From a virus: a stretch of 30,692 nt of DNA. Made by a program: the position numbers and the translations under genes. Below are positions 4,090-19,153 of this stretch, one piece after another. How positions within the stretch are numbered: position 1 is the first letter of the stretch; every line of letters starts with the position of its first letter. Under the pieces are notes generated by a model. That model was given only the letters and a program-made list of their open reading frames with translations, searched no databases and was not told the DNA's origin. The stretch covers positions 1 through 30,692 of the IMG/VR virus record IMGVR_UViG_3300023197_000086. One strand, written 5' to 3'.

Positions 4090-4118
4090 ACCCTACACGA
4101 TCCTGCAGTAAGTGTCAA
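4090..4118 (-). promoter_or_regulatory. putative sigma70 promoter with degenerate operator
   Basis: TTGACA-17nt-TAGGGT upstream of tRNA-Lys and mazG. Confidence 0.5.
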
Positions 4119-7664: not shown

Positions 7665-8114
7665 TTAGACGTTCATCGCCTCCCGCATCTTTCGCAATGC
7701 CTGACGATTCAAGTCGGACACCCGCGAGCCGGTGACGCCCAAAACCTCACCGGTCTGATCCACCGTTCGCAGATAGAACATGGACCACGTCTCATTGTCC
7801 CCCAGCCGGTCCAGGCCGAGCCGGTACCAGATCGACTCGTACTCACGCTGGGTCCAGATGTCGGGGCGGTGGCGGATGTGGTAGATGGCGTCGTTCACGA
7901 TCTGTTGGCTGAACTGCTTGACGGTGCGTGGATCGGGGGCATAATTGCGCGGCACGAAGGACTGGCCGGCTTCGGCCTGCATGCCGCGCTGCATAATGCG
8001 GTTGATGACCTCTTGGGGGTCGCCGTCCAAGTCATTCAGAAACTCGGACTCGGCTTGGGAGAACTGGCCGCGGAACAGCCAGAGGCCGTTCCGCTGCTCG
8101 ACGGTGACATACAT
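7665..8114 (-). CDS. protein with C-terminal sigma70 region-4-like HTH
   Basis: WTQREYESIWYRLGL..RTVDQTGEVLGVTGSRVSDLNRQALRKMR; GGAGG RBS. Confidence 0.8.
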   Translation of the reverse strand: MYVTVEQRNGLWLFRGQFSQAESEFLNDLDGDPQEVINRIMQRGMQAEAGQSFVPRNYAPDPRTVKQFSQQIVNDAIYHIRHRPDIWTQREYESIWYRLGLDRLGDNETWSMFYLRTVDQTGEVLGVTGSRVSDLNRQALRKMREAMNV

Positions 8115-8157
8115 GGTGGTGCCTCCTGCCATTAAGCCCCTCAACTGCCGACTGTCG

Positions 8158-8385
8158 TTACAAGAGCGGGTCCATGTCCAACGATAGCACACGTTCGCGA
8201 ATGGCGGCGCGTTGGTCGGGATCGCGTAACGAGTCTATCAGCGCCGACGCCTCTTGCGTCGACATGTCCTCGAGGTTGTCGCAGCCATGATAGCGTGCCA
8301 ACAGGCCGAGCGGAATCCGGTGCGCCCCTTGGTGGTGGCCGCACAGATCCTCGATAAACTTGACCTGCTTCGGCGTCGCCATCAC
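8158..8385 (-). CDS. small hypothetical protein (ATPKQ..EASALID motif)
   Basis: common phage helical motif ATPKQVKFI..MSTQEASALIDSL. Confidence 0.75.
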   Translation of the reverse strand: MMATPKQVKFIEDLCGHHQGAHRIPLGLLARYHGCDNLEDMSTQEASALIDSLRDPDQRAAIRERVLSLDMDPLL

Positions 8386-11464: not shown

Positions 11465-11838
11465 GTCTCCTCGTCCTCCTCGAGCAAGACGAACTCCTCG
11501 ATCTGGCCTATCTGCATGGAGTCCTCGCCGCACTCGCCGCACGTCGGCCACTCGAAGTCGGGATCCTCGCAGCCGTTGTCGCAGTAGACGCTTTTCACGG
11601 CGGCGATGTAGCCGCTACCTCGCGAGTTGACCCCAAACAGGCCGTTGATCAGCCCGAGCAAGCCGACCATGTAGTGCTTCGGGGAATCGGTTGCCCCGAC
11701 CTGAATCGTCGGATGCTCGGCCATCGACTCGTTCGTCGGCACACGGGTTTCGACAAGCTGGGTGACCGCCTCGGGGTCGGCCGCCACAGCCTCGTTTAAC
11801 AAGTGGATGGCGTCGAAGGCGTCAATTGTCTCGCTCAT
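11461..11838 (-). CDS. conserved phage hypothetical protein
   Basis: LNEAVAADPEAV..LVETRVP.NE.MAEHPTIQV..VGLLGLINGLFG; GGAGG RBS. Confidence 0.8.
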   Translation of the reverse strand: MSETIDAFDAIHLLNEAVAADPEAVTQLVETRVPTNESMAEHPTIQVGATDSPKHYMVGLLGLINGLFGVNSRGSGYIAAVKSVYCDNGCEDPDFEWPTCGECGEDSMQIGQIEEFVLLEEDEET

Positions 11839-12019
11839 GGTCAATAACCTCCCCGCGTTCGCTCAACCAGATGTCTTCGTAGACACAGTAGAGAACCATT
11901 TCGTCCGCAACCGGGAAGAACCCGGCGCCCAACACAAGCGCAGCATCTACGCGACGAATGCTGGCCAACTCCGTGCCGCAATATGGACAGAACACCATGG
12001 CCGCCGCTGTCGCCGGCAT
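11822..12019 (-). CDS. small zinc-ribbon protein
   Basis: FCPYCG; GGGGTGA RBS. Confidence 0.55.
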   Translation of the reverse strand: MPATAAAMVFCPYCGTELASIRRVDAALVLGAGFFPVADEMVLYCVYEDIWLSERGEVIDHERDN

Positions 12020-12031
12020 CGTCGTCACCCC

Positions 12032-12056
12032 TTGACGATACAAGTGAGATCGTCAA
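12032..12056. promoter_or_regulatory. palindromic operator TTGACGAT-N9-ATCGTCAA
   Basis: perfect palindrome with the same arms as 15334-15358. Confidence 0.65.
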
Positions 12057-12158
12057 GGGTAACCCTAACATGATCGCCCAGGGTGGGCAAGGACGGGGAA
12101 GGGCGATGCGTTCTGTTGTATATCACGACAGTTTGCCCTTCCCCGCCTGTGCCTCCTC

Positions 12159-13400
12159 TTACGCCGCGACGGTTGCCGGTGCTTCGGCCTCGACACGCGG
12201 CAACAGCTCGCGGATTTCGTCGTCGTCCACGTCCGATGTCCGGTCGGACTCCATAAAGCGCCAGCGCTGCCACAGCGCCCTTATCAGGCGCGAGGATGTG
12301 TTGCGGGAGGCGGTGTTGCGGACGTGGTCCGGGTTGCCGAAGAGGCTCTTGCAGTGCTCGCAGCGCCACACCGGATACGCCTTGCCGGTCTCCTCGTCGG
12401 TGTGACCGAGGTAGGCCCACCCTCCGGCATAGTTACTCTCACACTGGCGACACTTCTTCTGGCGACAGGTCGCACAGACGGCAGGCGGCTCGTCGGTGTA
12501 GCGATCGAGCCGATCCAGGCGCACCCGCTCCTTCTCCGCGTCGAGCAGATCCTTGAACGGCCCCATCTTGCCCCGCCCGTGTGAGCCTCTGCCGACGGAC
12601 TGCATCCAGTCCTGAAGGACGAGGGCCTTGCGCATCTGGTTGATGTTGACGTTCCCGCCGCGCTGCACGCGCTCGGCCACGACCTCCCCGTTGATGGTGT
12701 TGGTGGTGACGCCGAGCCACGCTTGCAGCGCCTCGGGGGTAGGGAAGCAGTCGATGCCGCGAGCCTCTTGCACCGTGGTCCGCTGCGTGCCGAAGGCGAT
12801 CGCTTCGTCGACGGGCTCCTCGTCGCACGGGCAGCTTTCGTAAGGCTTATCGTGCTGCACGCACATCAGCTTGCGCTGCCCGCCGATTTCGCCGATCAGC
12901 GCCGCCGGGATGTAGAGGTCGCCGGAGGTGCCGAACATGGCGCTGAAGAAGCCGTCCCACAGCGGATCGTCCTTGACAAACGCCTTCATCCGCTTGACGA
13001 GATAGCTTTTGCGCTCCTCCTCGATCCGATTACGGATCTCGGCGTGCATGCCGGAGAGCACGTCGCCGTCCTCGAGCGAGAGCAGCAGGGCCGACCGATC
13101 GCTGAACGAGCGGTCCAGTGCCACACGGCTTTGCACCCATTTCTTCGCGGCCCGCGAATACTGGCGCATCTTGAGCCGATGGCGCAGAAGCGGGTCTTCC
13201 GGGAAGCCGGAGAAGTCGCCTCGGAGGAAGGCATTGAAGAACGTCTTGGGATCGTTTTGCCAGTGATCCGGGTGGAGGTTGATGGCCCAGATCCACTCAG
13301 TGTAGTGGGCGGCGCACAGCGTCGCCGCCTTCGGCATCACTTTGCTCGTCTGGTAGCTGTTGGTCTTGCTGGCCGAGCACTGCATCCGATCGCACCCCAT
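12159..13400 (-). CDS. Nop-domain RNA-binding protein (TasA-like; IS110 C-terminal/Nop fold) with zinc-finger insertions
   Basis: AAGGAG RBS; coiled-coil followed by DDPLWDGFFSAMFG..PAALIGEIG..IDCFPTPEALQAWLGV..RGGNVNINQMRK..FKDLLDAEKER..HVRNTASRNTSSRLIRALWQRWR; no RuvC or HNH motif seen; adjacent to the stem-loop array. Confidence 0.8.
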   Translation of the reverse strand: MGCDRMQCSASKTNSYQTSKVMPKAATLCAAHYTEWIWAINLHPDHWQNDPKTFFNAFLRGDFSGFPEDPLLRHRLKMRQYSRAAKKWVQSRVALDRSFSDRSALLLSLEDGDVLSGMHAEIRNRIEEERKSYLVKRMKAFVKDDPLWDGFFSAMFGTSGDLYIPAALIGEIGGQRKLMCVQHDKPYESCPCDEEPVDEAIAFGTQRTTVQEARGIDCFPTPEALQAWLGVTTNTINGEVVAERVQRGGNVNINQMRKALVLQDWMQSVGRGSHGRGKMGPFKDLLDAEKERVRLDRLDRYTDEPPAVCATCRQKKCRQCESNYAGGWAYLGHTDEETGKAYPVWRCEHCKSLFGNPDHVRNTASRNTSSRLIRALWQRWRFMESDRTSDVDDDEIRELLPRVEAEAPATVAA

Positions 13401-13418
13401 GTGGGTGACTCTCCTTTC

Positions 13419-14311
13419 TCGGCGAGGCCGGGTGACATTGTTGCTTATAGATCCCATCGGTTCACCCGGCCTGCCGATCAACCTGCAAGGGTGCGGCGAT
13501 AAGGATCGTTGTAGACACAAATAATTAGCCGCACCCTCGCAATCCTCGCGGTGGGAGCGATCCGTAAAATTGTAGATCCGAGCAATTCACTCCCACAGCC
13601 GTACAACGACGCGGGCGTGGCGATGACGCGACTTATGGACCGAGCTCTTTTGCCACGCCCGCAATCTCCGACGGGGCGATCCTATAACTTTTGTATGGAG
13701 GGGTTCGCCCCCCCGCCGCTGGCACCGTCCGACAACGCACCGGGCCGGTGGGACACGTTGTATGGGCGACCTCTGGAATAACCGGCCCGGAATCTCGAAG
13801 GGGCGGTGTGTACCTCGTTTGTTTTGGATCGCTTCCATTCAAACCGCCCCTCCCATCGCTCGGCGGGGAGGGATGGCGAATATTTTGGATAGAGCAGGTT
13901 CCCTCCCCGCCGGCATCGCCGAGGGGAGGACGATGGAGTCGGTAAGCCACCATGCCAGTTTGCCCTCCCCTCGAATCGCGGCGGCGCGGCGGATGCCGCC
14001 AGTTCTCGACAGACCTAATTGCCGCGCCGCGCATATCGCATCGACGGATGGGAGGGGACGAGGGTACTTTTAGATACATTGCATATCCCTCCCATCCGTC
14101 GCATCTCCTTTCGTCGGCGGAGCCGGGTCGATCAGGCCGTTTTTGGACGCTCCCTTTTCGACCCGGCTCCGTCCGCTTCGATCGCAGGGCCGGTGGGCGG
14201 CAATACCACCTGTTCTGGATTCGGATCGTCTGCCGCCCACCGACCCGCCTATCACCGGGCGGGGTGGTGATTGCTAACGTTATAGATAAGCTCATTTTAC
14301 CAACCCGCCCG
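13419..14311 (-). ncRNA. stem-loop dual-spacer guide RNA array (TIGR-like), 14 units
   Basis: 14 GC-rich hairpins at ~60-75 nt period; most loops read AA-N8-RTC-nAn-AA-N8-RTC; G-U wobbles favour the minus strand. Confidence 0.88.
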
Positions 14312-14317
14312 ACATGC

Positions 14318-15265
14318 CTATTTCCGATCGGGGAAGTCGAGCCCGCGCAGGTGGCGGGCTGCGGTCTTCGCATCGTTGGTGTCGAGCCAACCGCTTTGCG
14401 ACAGCTCGTCCGCGGTGGCGGCGTAGCGGCGAGCCGTATCGAGGTCGTTGTCCTTGGCGTGGCGGGCGGCACTGTCGGCCAGCCGTTCCACGCGCCCGAC
14501 AATCTCCTGCGAGATCGACGTGCGCATCACGTCGTCAAAGGTCTCGAGCGGCAGGTCTGCCATCTCCTCGTCGATAAATCGCTGCAACAACCGGTCAAAG
14601 CCCTTTACGTCATCGGCCTCTGGCTGGCTGGTGAACATGTGCTCGGCTGCGGCGGGGATGAACGGTCGTGCGAGGGAGCCAAGGGCGTACTGCTTCATCC
14701 CGACCAGCTGCGCACGCTCCTTGGCCACGGCCTGCCAGTTCTCGCGGCGCGGACCGAGCCTCTCCATCCACTCCTGGGTCAGCCGACTGTGGCTGATGAG
14801 CCAACCCGGATAGATCAGGTTGCGCAGCGCGTACTTGGGCGTGATCTGGTAAGGCAACGAGGTGTTGGCGATCGCTTCGCCAAGGTTGTTGCCGGCGTAA
14901 AAGAACCACGATCGGAACAGCCAGTACGATTCGTTGGCCCGGGCAAAGTAACCGTTGCTCGCCCCGGCGTTGTCGATGGCGAGATGGGCCATCGCCTCTT
15001 CCTTGCTGTAGCCCGACATCTTGAACGCATTGACATGGGTGATCCCCGCCTGATCCAAGATGTAGATGCGGCTCTCCCCGGTCTCGACGATCTTGGTCCC
15101 GTCCGGCAGCTCCAATATGGTCGGCGGGTTGATCCACGCCCGCCCGATGCGCTGCTCGTTCGCAAGGTTGCGCAGCTGCCGTTCATCCTTCACCAGCGCG
15201 TTGATGTTGAGCGGGTTGTAGATGAGCTCAGCTATTGGATAGTTCGTGAGGTCATGGAACCGCAA
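14318..15265 (-). CDS. ParB/Srx-like N-terminal domain protein
   Basis: PIAELIYNPLN..LRNLA..INPPTILELPDGTKIVETGESRI..AGITHV..AIDN matches the ParB pattern including GxxR; AAGGGGCTGAG motif upstream. Confidence 0.75.
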   Translation of the reverse strand: MRFHDLTNYPIAELIYNPLNINALVKDERQLRNLANEQRIGRAWINPPTILELPDGTKIVETGESRIYILDQAGITHVNAFKMSGYSKEEAMAHLAIDNAGASNGYFARANESYWLFRSWFFYAGNNLGEAIANTSLPYQITPKYALRNLIYPGWLISHSRLTQEWMERLGPRRENWQAVAKERAQLVGMKQYALGSLARPFIPAAAEHMFTSQPEADDVKGFDRLLQRFIDEEMADLPLETFDDVMRTSISQEIVGRVERLADSAARHAKDNDLDTARRYAATADELSQSGWLDTNDAKTAARHLRGLDFPDRK

Positions 15266-15333
15266 GTGTGACTCAGCCCCTTTCGTGAATGGTCTCCTGC
15301 TACCTATCCCACCCCCCCCGCCTGCGTCGGCGG

Positions 15334-15372
15334 TTGACGATCACGATAACATCGTCAAGCCCCAAGTGTCAA
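15334..15372 (-). promoter_or_regulatory. promoter of the parB-array-tas unit with palindromic operator
   Basis: TTGACA(15372-15367)-18nt-TATCGT(15348-15343); TTGACGAT-N9-ATCGTCAA at 15334-15358 overlaps the -10. Confidence 0.6.
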
Positions 15373-15551
15373 CATCTTTGTCATGCTCTCACATGTGATA
15401 GTGTAGCACGGTTAATAAAGGGCAGCGGTCAGTCTGCGCCTCGGAGTCCCTAGCCTTGCCCGGGAAAGGCGGTGTCAATCAATTAATGGCCCCTGAATAG
15501 GCTCCGTCAAGCCGCTCGGCAGACGCCCTCAGCACGACACGACTGAGGGCA

Positions 15552-15580
15552 TTGACACAGGATAGTTGGAGTGATACCCT
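15552..15580 (+). promoter_or_regulatory. putative sigma70 promoter
   Basis: TTGACA-17nt-TACCCT with TG element. Confidence 0.5.
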
Positions 15581-15629
15581 CTGGGTCACTATGCACATCT
15601 CGGCGCGTTGTCAACACGGAGAGAACCTG

Positions 15630-15983
15630 ATGGGGTTCGTCAGCCTGAACAGCCGGGAAGCCAGACTGTTGGGGGAGACGCCAGAGGACCGGCGGCTGGC
15701 CCTCGAAAACCTGCTGCACGAGCACTTGCAGCACTTGGAGCGGGAGAGCCGTGCGCGCTCCGAACCGCTCTCCGGATACACTCCCGAGACGATCGAGGCC
15801 GTCCGCCACCAACTCGCCACCGACGGCGCCGCGGTCTCGGAGTCCCTCCGCCGCTTGCTCGATCTGCGCTTCAATCAAGAGCTTTCCTTGAAAGCCACTG
15901 GCGAGCAGATCGGCTTCTCCGCCCAAACCGTCAAGAAACACGAACGCAAAGCCCTGACCGCCCTCGGCATCAAACCCGAATAA
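15630..15983 (+). CDS. sigma70 region-4-like HTH protein
   Basis: LRRLLDLRFNQELSLKATGEQIGFSAQTVKKHERKALTALG; start could also be 15591. Confidence 0.8.
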   Translation: MGFVSLNSREARLLGETPEDRRLALENLLHEHLQHLERESRARSEPLSGYTPETIEAVRHQLATDGAAVSESLRRLLDLRFNQELSLKATGEQIGFSAQTVKKHERKALTALGIKPE

Positions 15984-16030: not shown

Positions 16031-17086
16031 CTATCCCTGCCGAGAAAATGCAATGGTGAGAGCAAACAGCCTAGCAGGGCCGTCCCTCCTAAAGCAACTG
16101 ATGCAATAGATTTAAGTGGGAAGCGGATGAGGGCGTGCGTGTCGAGACGTCGCCCGCCAATAAATAGACCCCTCCCTTCTAGCAGATTGGAAGAAAGGTT
16201 ACTAGAGGAGGAGGGGATGGAAGGCAGGGTTTGGCGTGCCTAAAAAGTGAAAGCATGCCCACATCCCCCCCTGGGGGTATTGATACAGCCTAGTCGGTGT
16301 GTTAGTATTGGGGTAGATGACCAAGATAGGGTCAAGATGGAGGATGATAGGCTCAAGATAACCTGAGAGAAGCTGTGACGTATTAGCAAGGTGACGGGGA
16401 GAGCGCGTCGCGTGAGCACGTGCACCCCCGGATTGCCGCGAGACGCCCCGGCAACCGACCGTGACCGGTGCTGCGGGCAAGGGACGGGAGTACGTCTTGC
16501 GGGATAAGGGGAGCGGACACACGTCCGCCAGAGCTCCCACGCCCATACATACCGGACAGCCACACGGTCTGCACGTCCCGTGCGAGTCCTCTGCCACCCG
16601 TGCATCCTCTAGCGGGACACCGTGAGAAACGGCTGGCACACGTACCGAATGGCTCTGCGTGTGTGGTGGACCTTGGGACACGCCCACACCTATGTCCTCA
16701 CTATAGATGACCGGATTGCACTCCGACACTCGCGCGCACATCTCTGGACACATGGCTACACCCCCAGTGTAACCCGTAAAGGAGTGAGTGTGCTATGCCC
16801 CGCAACAGTGTATGGGTGCAGGAGATGTGCAATGACTGTAAGACGCCCCGTTACAACGTGAGTCGCTACACCATTGACACTCAAGTGGCAGACGCTACGC
16901 CGATATGTGCGGTATTGTGCAGCGTTCCAGCCGGGACTTATGCCCTGAGTGTGCCGATGGGTACGACGTCAAGGGACGTCTGTTATATCCCTTGACGTTG
17001 AAGCAAGCGGCGATCTTGACAGGCTGACACGGACGACGGACACGCCATGTGTCCAGAGACGTGCGTGCGAGTGACCCCGCAATCCC

Positions 17087-17798
17087 GCCTCTGACCGTCA
17101 CGGTTGGGTGCCCCATCTCTCCAACGCCCAACGAATGGAGGGATACGATGTCAGAGAACGGTGCCCCGACTGTGACGACCGACCCCATCGACGTGCGCAA
17201 CAGCCGTCTCGAAGACGAATCTGACGGCGAGTTCGAGAGCGGCGAGCAGTTCCGTCAGTACGCCGAGCAATCGGCCACGATGAGCGTGTCGGACGACGAC
17301 GTGCTGGCCCTCTTCCAGGAGTTCGAGAAGATCGTCCTTGAAGGGATGGGCAAGCTACCGACCGGGTGTGTCGGCATCAACACTCGGTTCGACACGCTGC
17401 GCTTGTCCGACGACGTGGGCGATCGAGCACGGGGCTTTGAGAAGATCGCCCCGTTCATCGCCCCCAAGAGTCGCAAGCTCGGCCTCAAGTTGACGAACGC
17501 CCCGTTCAGCGACGGCGGGCGCAACATGTCGTTGCGCCGCAATCAGAAGAAGAACGGCGCGTACTCCGACGGCGCCGTGGTCAGCATCAAGTCCTGGATT
17601 CAGAACTCGTCTCCGCTCCAAGACGGCAAGCGGATCAAGGACTGGTTTCAGGATAACCTGCCGCAACAGGGGCCGTGCTTCTACAGCACCGAGTTCCTGC
17701 AAGACGGCCACGGCAACGACTGGCTTGTCGTGGACCTGGACGACCCTGTGCAGTAAGTAACGCCCACGATGGGGCACCCACCCGTGACGGTCAGCGGC
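17087..17798. repeat. 31-bp inverted repeats (17087-17117 and 17768-17798) flanking one gene
   Basis: GCCTCTGACCGTCACGGTTGGGTGCCCCATC versus GATGGGGCACCCACCCGTGACGGTCAGCGGC, 2 mismatches. Confidence 0.85.
17148..17756 (+). CDS. hypothetical protein (202 aa)
   Basis: GGAGG RBS, strong GC3 codon bias. Confidence 0.85.
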   Translation: MSENGAPTVTTDPIDVRNSRLEDESDGEFESGEQFRQYAEQSATMSVSDDDVLALFQEFEKIVLEGMGKLPTGCVGINTRFDTLRLSDDVGDRARGFEKIAPFIAPKSRKLGLKLTNAPFSDGGRNMSLRRNQKKNGAYSDGAVVSIKSWIQNSSPLQDGKRIKDWFQDNLPQQGPCFYSTEFLQDGHGNDWLVVDLDDPVQ

Positions 17799-18864: not shown

Positions 18865-19100
18865 AGCCACGCCCTACACGACCAGCACTGCGGCGCAGAC
18901 GGGAGGACGGCCACACCACAACTCGGACAAGCCGACTCGCCACTTGTTTCACTACGCGGTCGAGTTGTTTCACTACGCCCAACGGGCTCCGACCCGATAG
19001 CGCTTAGGATTTCCTGCTTCACCTTGCCGTCCTCCCGATACGTGCGGGCCCAATACTTGTGGACCCGCTGACCGCGCCGTACTCGCTTCACAAATGCCAT
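18861..19100 (-). CDS. small beta-sheet DNA-binding-like protein
   Basis: MAFVKRVRRGQRVHKYWARTYREDGKVKQEILSAIG resembles three-stranded arm-binding/IS1634 N-terminal-type domains. Confidence 0.6.
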   Translation of the reverse strand: MAFVKRVRRGQRVHKYWARTYREDGKVKQEILSAIGSEPVGRSETTRPRSETSGESACPSCGVAVLPSAPQCWSCRAWL

Positions 19101-19153
19101 TGTTTCACTACAGTACCCAACTGTTTCACTACAAACAAGGACTGTTTCACTAC
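18945..19153. repeat. five direct repeats TGTTTCACTAC with 21-bp period (iteron-like)
   Basis: exact copies at 18945, 18966, 19101, 19122 and 19143. Confidence 0.92.

What the first reader, a model, noticed from the sequence alone, without database searches (positions are those of the whole stretch)
14318..15265. ParB-like partner suggests RNA-programmed clamp loading, segregation or silencing
Seen: a ParB-pattern N-terminal domain (GESR) with an unrecognised helical C-terminus, first in the operon, and no ParA in the window. Known: ParB proteins are CTP-dependent clamps loaded at parS sites and can silence genes by spreading. Inference: the guide-bound Nop protein could replace parS and recruit this protein to up to 14 chosen sites. 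I recall ParB being noted beside some TasA loci; this needs verifying.
Basis: inference. Interest (0 to 1): 0.75.

Follow-up and report, generated by a model that had tools for sequence, protein, structure and literature searches.

The report
ParB-like helper beside unusual guide array
A phage gene whose product resembles the nucleotide-binding part of ParB sits directly in front of 14 hairpin repeats with unusual conserved motifs and a gene likely encoding an RNA-guided DNA-binding protein; the pairing is published but untested, and the repeats match nothing else in the phage's own genome, so the trio would more likely silence foreign DNA than segregate the phage.

Summary
The ORF at 14318-15265 (minus strand, 315 aa) is real. 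Its first ~100 residues are a divergent ParB/Srx-type domain (GESR and Box III Asn kept; Box I Arg, GxxRxxA Ala and the ParA-binding motif missing). It leads a promoter, ParB-like gene, 14-unit stem-loop array, Nop-like gene arrangement. The parB-tasA pairing is published (Faure 2025, tasParB), there with dual-repeat arrays, and this scan noted it before in several other genomes. What differs here is a stem-loop array with non-canonical boxes (AA-N8-RTC twice) and two proteins with no relatives found. Segregation is unlikely: none of 18 guide units has an exact target in the 111-kb genome (near matches at chance level), and the phage has a separate ParA with its own small coupled gene. Co-occurrence across homologous loci could not be tested (no homologues found), and binding between the two proteins is untested. 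Best reading: a nucleotide-binding accessory that helps a nuclease-free TasA-like complex silence foreign DNA (0.4). CTP-clamp loading at guided sites is possible but unsupported (about 0.15).

The parts
15343..15372 (-). Sigma-70-type promoter-like site (TTGACA, 18 nt, extended TG, TATCGT), 78 nt upstream of the ParB-like start
   Evidence: only site found in 11800-15800, 10 of 12 matches; shuffles give 0.8 on average, so the match alone is weak
15334..15358 (.). Palindrome TTGACGAT-N9-ATCGTCAA overlapping the promoter; operator-like; binder unknown
   Evidence: one of only two perfect copies in the genome
15271..15281 (-). Ribosome-binding-site motif AGGGGCTGAGT, shared with other genes of this phage
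   Evidence: 14 sites with at most 1 mismatch in the genome
14318..15265 (-). ParB/Srx-like protein, 315 aa: ParB-type domain (residues about 6-100), unassigned helical remainder with an acidic C-terminal third
   Evidence: no curated family hit
13415..14315 (-). Array of 14 stem-loop units, each stem-AA-N8-RTC-N3-AA-N8-RTC-stem, spaced 56-74 nt; all spacers different
   Evidence: folding z -7.2 against 20 shuffles
12159..13403 (-). Divergent Nop-like (TasA-like) protein, 414 aa, three CxxC motifs near the C-terminus, no nuclease family detected
   Evidence: NF052498 TIGR_Tas_endo E 2.9e-4, 20.9 bits against a cut-off of 100; PF02371 E 0.14
12085..12150 (-). 15th stem-loop unit directly after the Nop-like gene (core 12133-12105)
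   Evidence: z -5.1
12032..12056 (.). Second perfect copy of the palindrome TTGACGAT-N9-ATCGTCAA, at the downstream end of the cassette

Best explanation
The gene encodes a divergent ParB/Srx-fold protein that is likely co-expressed with the 14-unit hairpin array and the TasA-like gene, and that would act as a nucleotide-binding accessory helping the guide-loaded, probably nuclease-free Nop protein silence foreign DNA. Shown: gene order, array anatomy, ParB-type motifs, no exact self-targets. Inferred from published TIGR work: the array is cut into dual-spacer guides, and the TasA-like dimer binds matching double-stranded DNA and blocks transcription. Inferred with least support: the ParB-like protein joins or stabilises that bound complex, so that repression of a competing phage, mobile element or host gene is stronger or lasts longer. 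Which nucleotide it binds, and whether it closes as a clamp, is open.
For: Layout: the array begins a few bases after the ParB-like stop, and its last stem runs into the Nop-like gene's ribosome-binding site. There is one upstream promoter-like site and no intervening terminator-like site on that strand. ParB-type domain. Recurrent tasParB-tasA operons in otherwise variable neighbourhoods are published (PMC12045711). Nuclease-free TasA represses transcription in a guide-dependent way (bioRxiv 2026.09.09.750476). Targets are not in cis: 0 exact matches for 18 units in 10 geometries, and near matches equal to shuffled guides (p 0.12-1.0). Precedents for accessory roles: phage ParB-like activators of thymine dioxygenases (PMC13229309), and the VIPR accessory vap1, which is needed against a satellite (bioRxiv 2026.10.15.759431; that vap1 is ParB-like was not confirmed here).
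Against: One locus only: no homologue of either protein and no similar array was found (135/137), so linkage is not shown for this clade. The Nop assignment is below the curated cut-off, and the box motifs are not the published ones. Published TasA proteins bind and repress without a ParB partner, so an accessory is not required. No foreign target was identified. A perfect palindrome in the gene's own promoter offers a guide-independent site it might bind instead.
Confidence: 0.4

Rival explanations
1. One reading: the guide-bound Nop dimer replaces parS and loads this protein as a CTP-dependent sliding clamp that spreads and silences over a distance (as KorB and VirB do from their own sites). 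This is a special case of the best explanation.
For: Box II G63-E64-x-R66, Box III N99, G41 and P47 are kept. CTP clamps that regulate genes are known (PMC12704722). No HTH_ParB match was found, which would fit loss of a site of its own.
Against: The Box I Arg position is Asn, the second Arg of GERR is Ser, the Ala of GxxRxxA is Ile, and the conserved Box I Ser has no counterpart (alignment-dependent). The fold binds CTP, ATP or GTP and this cannot be predicted from sequence. In phage dioxygenase-linked ParBs the nucleotide residues were dispensable. The C-terminal third is acidic (23 D/E against 15 K/R).
Confidence: 0.15
2. The protein is a DNA-binding regulator with a site of its own, for example the palindrome TTGACGAT-N9-ATCGTCAA, and controls the cassette's promoter without touching the guide complex.
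For: The only two perfect copies in 111 kb (15334 and 12032) bracket the cassette, and one overlaps the promoter. Four sites with at most 2 mismatches occur at spacer 9, and none at spacers 5-8 or 10-13. Autoregulation by ParB-family proteins is recalled knowledge.
Against: Weaker copies lie in promoter-like elements of unrelated genes (4094, 9578, 51078). The arms resemble a -35 hexamer, and the phage has two sigma70-region-4 HTH proteins, one divergently adjacent, which are equally good candidates. No HTH was recognised in this protein.
Confidence: 0.15
3. The ParB/Srx fold is used as an enzyme (NTPase, nuclease or RNA-processing factor) that serves the array, for example in guide maturation or spacer renewal.
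For: Stem-loop Tas proteins lack the processing dyad, and maturation and spacer acquisition are unexplained. The fold has enzymatic members such as Srx and SerK.
Against: Published stem-loop arrays are processed in E. coli without a dedicated partner. No catalytic residues beyond the nucleotide boxes were identified.
Confidence: 0.12
4. RNA-programmed segregation of the phage's own plasmid-like genome.
For: The genome encodes a ParA, and PF02195 finds no canonical ParB in it.
Against: No exact self-target for 18 units. No ParA-binding motif and no N-terminal extension. The ParA lies about 18 kb away across the genome's overlapping ends and has its own overlapping downstream gene of about 100 aa, as in type Ib cassettes (the type is my inference).
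Confidence: 0.04
5. Passenger: an orphan ParB-like gene next to which a TIGR-like cassette settled, sharing a promoter but no function.
For: Orphan ParB-fold genes are common on phages. A second array of 3 units sits elsewhere in the genome without either gene, so units do appear at new places.
Against: The same pairing recurs in published dual-repeat systems. The array abuts the stop codon.
Confidence: 0.14

Closest known systems
tasParB-tasA operons (Faure et al. [quoted passage not shown]
   Same: A parB-like gene in an apparent operon with a nuclease-free Nop gene, guide array between or around them; function untested.
   Different: The published loci have dual-repeat arrays; this one has stem-loop units. 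Sequence kinship with tasParB could not be tested (fig. S14 is in a PDF that could not be read).
Stem-loop TIGR-TasA systems (PlTasA, BlTasA, MbTasA; PMC12045711; bioRxiv 2026.09.09.750476; bioRxiv 2026.08.11.744272)
   Same: Tandem hairpins with variable stems, each holding two short spacers between fixed motifs; units upstream, downstream and in a separate sub-array; Nop protein with no nuclease detected.
   Different: Boxes are (N)AA and (R)TC instead of C[CGTA]A and [TC]G; 2 nt between the two 14-nt intervals (7-nt loop) instead of the usual 9-nt loop; the Nop protein is far below the family cut-off and has three CxxC motifs; the TIGRFinder preprint has 0 occurrences of 'ParB'.
Canonical ParB/KorB/VirB/Noc CTP clamps
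   Same: N-terminal ParB-type domain with GxxR and Box III Asn; helical remainder of similar total length.
   Different: No adjacent ParA, no ParA-binding motif, no recognised HTH or dimerisation domain, altered Box I and Box II residues.
Phage 5mYOX-associated ParB activators (PMC13229309)
   Same: A phage ParB-like accessory without an obvious DNA-binding domain, next to a DNA-acting partner.
   Different: The partner there is a thymine dioxygenase and activation was shown; nothing is shown here.

Membership tests
ParB/Srx fold (ParB_N) | Match to PF02195 at the curated cut-off | tested here: not met
   no match
ParB/Srx fold (ParB_N) | Profile-level likeness to ParB N-domains with Box II GxxR and Box III Asn in register | tested here: met
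   (first of 1056 ORFs, E 0.0097; 15.9 against 7.9 bits for 500 shuffles)
ParB/Srx fold (ParB_N) | Three-dimensional fold | tested here: inconclusive
   single-sequence models, mean pLDDT 41 and 44; the fold search covered residues 238-315 only
Canonical partition ParB (ParABS type Ia) | GxxRxxA and Box I Arg/Ser of CTP binders | tested here: not met
   I69, N22, N36/E37, S65; mapped through the family consensus, not through a direct alignment to MxParB
Canonical partition ParB (ParABS type Ia) | ParA-binding motif [LFI]G[KR]G[LFI] and adjacent parA | tested here: not met
   motif definition from PMC12704722
Canonical partition ParB (ParABS type Ia) | Central HTH and C-terminal dimerisation domain | tested here: inconclusive
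   no PF17762 match, but even PF02195 misses this protein
Canonical partition ParB (ParABS type Ia) | CTP binding, hydrolysis, clamp closure and spreading | not testable with these tools
   needs biochemistry; not predictable from sequence
TIGR-Tas (stem-loop TasA) | Nop-domain protein next to the array | tested here: inconclusive
   NF052498 E 2.9e-4, 20.9 bits, cut-off 100; PF02371 E 0.14; Atlas uninformative
TIGR-Tas (stem-loop TasA) | Tandem hairpins, each with two 8-12-nt variable spacers between fixed motifs | tested here: met
   18 units, 36 of 36 spacers distinct, stem columns paired in 14-17 of 18 units with several pair types
TIGR-Tas (stem-loop TasA) | [quoted passage not shown] | tested here: not met
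   0 seed pairs in the cassette or the second array for all 8 combinations on both strands; NAA/TC gives 10 pairs, all in the arrays; seeds
TIGR-Tas (stem-loop TasA) | No nuclease domain | tested here: inconclusive
   no nuclease family; the N-terminal part is unassigned
TIGR-Tas (stem-loop TasA) | Array transcribed and processed into guides that direct DNA binding | not testable with these tools
   needs RNP pull-down and small-RNA sequencing
tasParB-tasA operon | parB-like gene in an operon with tasA | tested here: met
   layout and promoter/terminator scan; co-transcription itself is inferred
tasParB-tasA operon | Dual-repeat array | tested here: not met
   stems vary in sequence and no repeat family covers the array
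tasParB-tasA operon | Sequence kinship with published tasParB; operon conserved across loci | tested here: inconclusive
   no tasParB sequence available; no homologous locus found

The most novel reading that the evidence does not exclude
A separate branch of Nop-domain RNA-guided systems, with its own box code (AA / RUC) that current TIGR annotation misses, has independently acquired a ParB-fold partner. The guide-bound Nop dimer acts as a programmable parS that loads a nucleotide-gated clamp, turning a point roadblock into long-range silencing of rival phage or host DNA.
Probability: 0.12. Interest if true: 0.85.

Novelty: new variant of a known kind. Interest (0 to 1): 0.45.

Why it matters
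The function of ParB-like genes beside TasA is an open, published question: a search for 'tasParB' finds only the 2025 paper. This locus pairs such a gene with the other array architecture and with box motifs outside the published seed set. If the link is functional, ParB-fold accessories accompany both kinds of TIGR array, and motif-anchored annotation is missing a branch. The 3.3-kb cassette is small enough to test directly. If the clamp model held, it would be a programmable loader for a spreading silencer.

Tried and rejected
Homologue searches, all empty apart from the query itself: 5.8-billion-protein search; viral contigs; metagenome contigs; genome contigs; phage records (29, 30, 81, 122: only weak hits, E 0.06-10, not pursued); look-alikes among earlier findings. 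These tools need short exact words, so distant relatives are not excluded, and the Atlas suggests they exist. The exhaustive profile search over cluster representatives was not available. Array-pattern scans returned 20, 7, 89 and 39 loci; none held an array of this kind: they were simple tandem repeats or single chance matches. Three peptide motifs of the Nop-like protein were not found in Table S1 of PMC12045711, but the stored file is cut, so this is weak. Structure prediction without an alignment gave low-confidence models; the one fold search hit only generic helical bundles (Z up to 9.4); the N-domain model could not be searched. Sequencing runs: no RNA holder listed; the one DNA holder may be the source sample and shows the stretch in one contig without differences. 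Rfam: nothing near a gathering score. The one 15/16 self-match (unit at 14020, reversed geometry) is within chance. The antisense ORF 13952-15271 (+) was set aside because the ParB motifs, ribosome-binding motif and codon pattern belong to the minus-strand frame. The claim in earlier AI notes that tasParB is kin to VIPR accessory genes was not confirmed: both VIPR preprints checked have 0 occurrences of 'ParB' in the main text, and their supplements are closed.

Full report
Setting. The window is bases 1-30692 of a 111,451-base virus record with terminase, portal and tail-related genes and tRNAs. It is classed as linear and 87% complete, but its two ends overlap in sequence, so it is probably close to whole. 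On the minus strand the order is: promoter-like site at 15372-15343, the 315-aa ORF of the finding (15265-14318), about 900 nt of non-coding DNA, and a 414-aa ORF (13403-12159).

The observation. The ORF is there with a TTG start, a ribosome-binding motif shared by 14 sites in the genome and a coding-like codon pattern. No curated family matches it (Pfam; PHROGs; NCBIfam; solved-structure sequences). Three lines still point to a ParB/Srx-type N-terminus. First, among 9 weak plasmid hits of residues 1-122 (E 1-8), 3 were annotated ParB proteins, aligning at 30% over 84 columns. Second, a profile from 9 ParB-like domains of other phage records, leaving out those two seeds, ranked this ORF first of 1056 six-frame ORFs (E 0.0097, next 0.2). 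It gave 15.9 bits against 7.9 for the best of 500 shuffles. The 9 were collected by likeness to one seed, so this is not fully independent. Third, the ESM Atlas put it with viral clusters of 328-335 aa at 0.93-0.94, one with ParB_N on 12% of members; shared-feature counts were low (121-132), so this is a lead. G41, P47, G63, R66 and N99 are invariant in the 11-sequence alignment, and E64 is present. The Arg of the NPR motif is N22, the second position of GERR is S65, the Ala of GxxRxxA is I69, and the conserved Ser before G41 has no counterpart. By the residue roles listed in PMC13229309 (passages), the phosphate contacts are partly kept and the cytosine contacts partly lost. This mapping goes through the family consensus and depends on the alignment. 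There is no ParA-binding motif and no N-terminal extension, and no HTH_ParB match. Both structure predictions were low-confidence, and the only fold search matched the C-terminal helices to generic bundles.

The array. Fourteen units lie between the two genes, spaced 56-74 nt. Each is a GC-rich stem of variable sequence around AA-N8-RTC-N3-AA-N8-RTC. Eight of 14 match all ten motif positions. Genome-wide there are 11 perfect matches on the minus strand and 0 on the plus strand; the other three form a second small array at 33248-33113. A 15th unit follows the Nop-like gene at 12133. All 36 spacers differ. Stem columns pair in 14-17 of 18 units with several pair types, and the region folds at z -7.2 against 20 shuffles. 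This is the architecture of stem-loop TIGR arrays (PMC12045711, passages). The boxes are not the published ones: the eight TIGRFinder seed combinations (bioRxiv 2026.09.09.750476, passages) give 0 pairs in the arrays, whereas NAA/TC gives 10, all in the arrays. The loop between the spacers is 7 nt counted their way, against a usual 9. Whether the invariant purine (36 of 36) belongs to the spacer or the box is open. The downstream protein matches the NCBIfam TIGR-Tas model at E 2.9e-4 but at 20.9 bits against a cut-off of 100, and the IS110 C-terminal Pfam family at E 0.14. No nuclease family was seen. I call it TasA-like, not a proven member.

Testing the interpretation. (a) Segregation needs targets on the phage's own DNA. 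Using the published tandem rule (PMC12045711, section 6) and its variants with gaps of 0-4, none of 18 units has an exact match. Near matches equal those of 200 sets of shuffled guides (p 0.12-1.0). The genome does encode a ParA (E 1.1e-43), about 18 kb away across the overlapping ends. It is followed by an overlapping small gene of about 100 aa with no family match, which I infer to be its own DNA-binding partner. (b) Conserved co-occurrence could not be tested: no homologue of either protein and no similar array turned up in any collection searched (pattern scans 31, 49, 74, 135, checked in 34, 54, 75, 137). These searches rely on short exact words and do not show absence. (c) Physical interaction is untested. 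(d) A competing clue: the palindrome TTGACGAT-N9-ATCGTCAA occurs perfectly only twice in the genome, at 15334 inside the promoter and at 12032 just after the cassette. Weaker copies lie at other promoter-like sites. It could be bound by this protein or by one of two sigma70-region-4 proteins.

What is known. Faure et al. 2025 report a parB-like gene, tasParB, consistently in operons with tasA, with dual-repeat arrays around or between the genes, an AlphaFold3 2:2 model and HHpred matches to ParB CTPases; the passages read report no functional test (I read the abstract, passages and sections 4, 6 and 24; fig. S14 is in a PDF that could not be read). The term appears in no other paper of the library. 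The TIGRFinder preprint (parts 1-4 of 7 read) shows that nuclease-free TasA represses transcription without a partner and that natural targets are mostly unknown; it has 0 occurrences of ParB. PMC12704722 (passages) shows that the fold binds CTP, ATP or GTP unpredictably and is common as an orphan on phages. PMC13229309 (passages) shows phage ParB-like activators whose nucleotide residues were dispensable. In VIPR, an accessory gene is needed against a satellite (two preprints, passages). For the PlTasA structure preprint I read passages. Earlier AI notes of this scan describe tasParB-tasA in several other genomes; they are unchecked leads.

Mechanism and verdict. Most likely the three parts form one expression unit. 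The array would yield dual-spacer guides, and the TasA-like dimer would bind foreign DNA and block transcription. The ParB-like protein would be a nucleotide-binding accessory to that complex (0.4). CTP-clamp loading is one unproven form of this (0.15). An independent regulator (0.15), a passenger (0.14), an enzyme serving the array (0.12) and segregation (0.04) are the rivals. The pairing is known. The stem-loop array with non-canonical boxes and the distance of both proteins from anything found make this a new variant. Interest 0.45.

Noticed in passing
G000:C1:33060-33270 (L029:3060-3270), minus strand, outside the window: Second array of 3 perfect stem-loop units of the same type, with no Nop-like or ParB-like gene beside it, just past the end of a SNF2-type helicase gene on the opposite strand.
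   Followed up: partly
window 12032-12056 and 15334-15358; weaker at 4094, 5065, 9578 and genome 51078, 56433: Operator-like palindrome TTGACGAT-N9-ATCGTCAA; the two perfect copies bracket the ParB-array-Nop cassette; several weaker copies coincide with TTGACA-17-TAnnnT promoter-like sites.
   Followed up: partly
G000:C1:106430-107523 (L028), minus strand: ParA gene (264 aa) with an overlapping downstream gene of about 100 aa that has no family match; looks like a type Ib partition cassette, suggesting a plasmid-like prophage state.
   Followed up: partly
G000:C1:109328-110680 (L033:9328-10680), minus strand: TnpB/Cas12f-like protein, 450 aa (NF040570 E 2.2e-13, below cut-off): a second candidate RNA-guided protein in the same phage.
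   Followed up: no
   Followed up: partly
window 16727-17073 and 17044-17798: Two long inverted repeats (30 nt at 93% and 31 nt at 94%) around a non-coding stretch and the 235-aa ORF at 17049-17756.
   Followed up: no
window 18944-19153: Five copies of the short repeat TGTTTCACTAC in a non-coding region; possibly iterons or operators.
   Followed up: no
window 15552-15983 (+) and 7665-8192 (-): Two sigma70-region-4 HTH proteins; the first is transcribed divergently from the ParB-like gene.
   Followed up: no
window 12159-12480 (C-terminal part of the Nop-like ORF): Three CxxC motifs (residues 310, 318, 348), a possible zinc-binding insertion; 'zinc' does not occur in the two 2026 TIGR preprints checked.
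   Followed up: no
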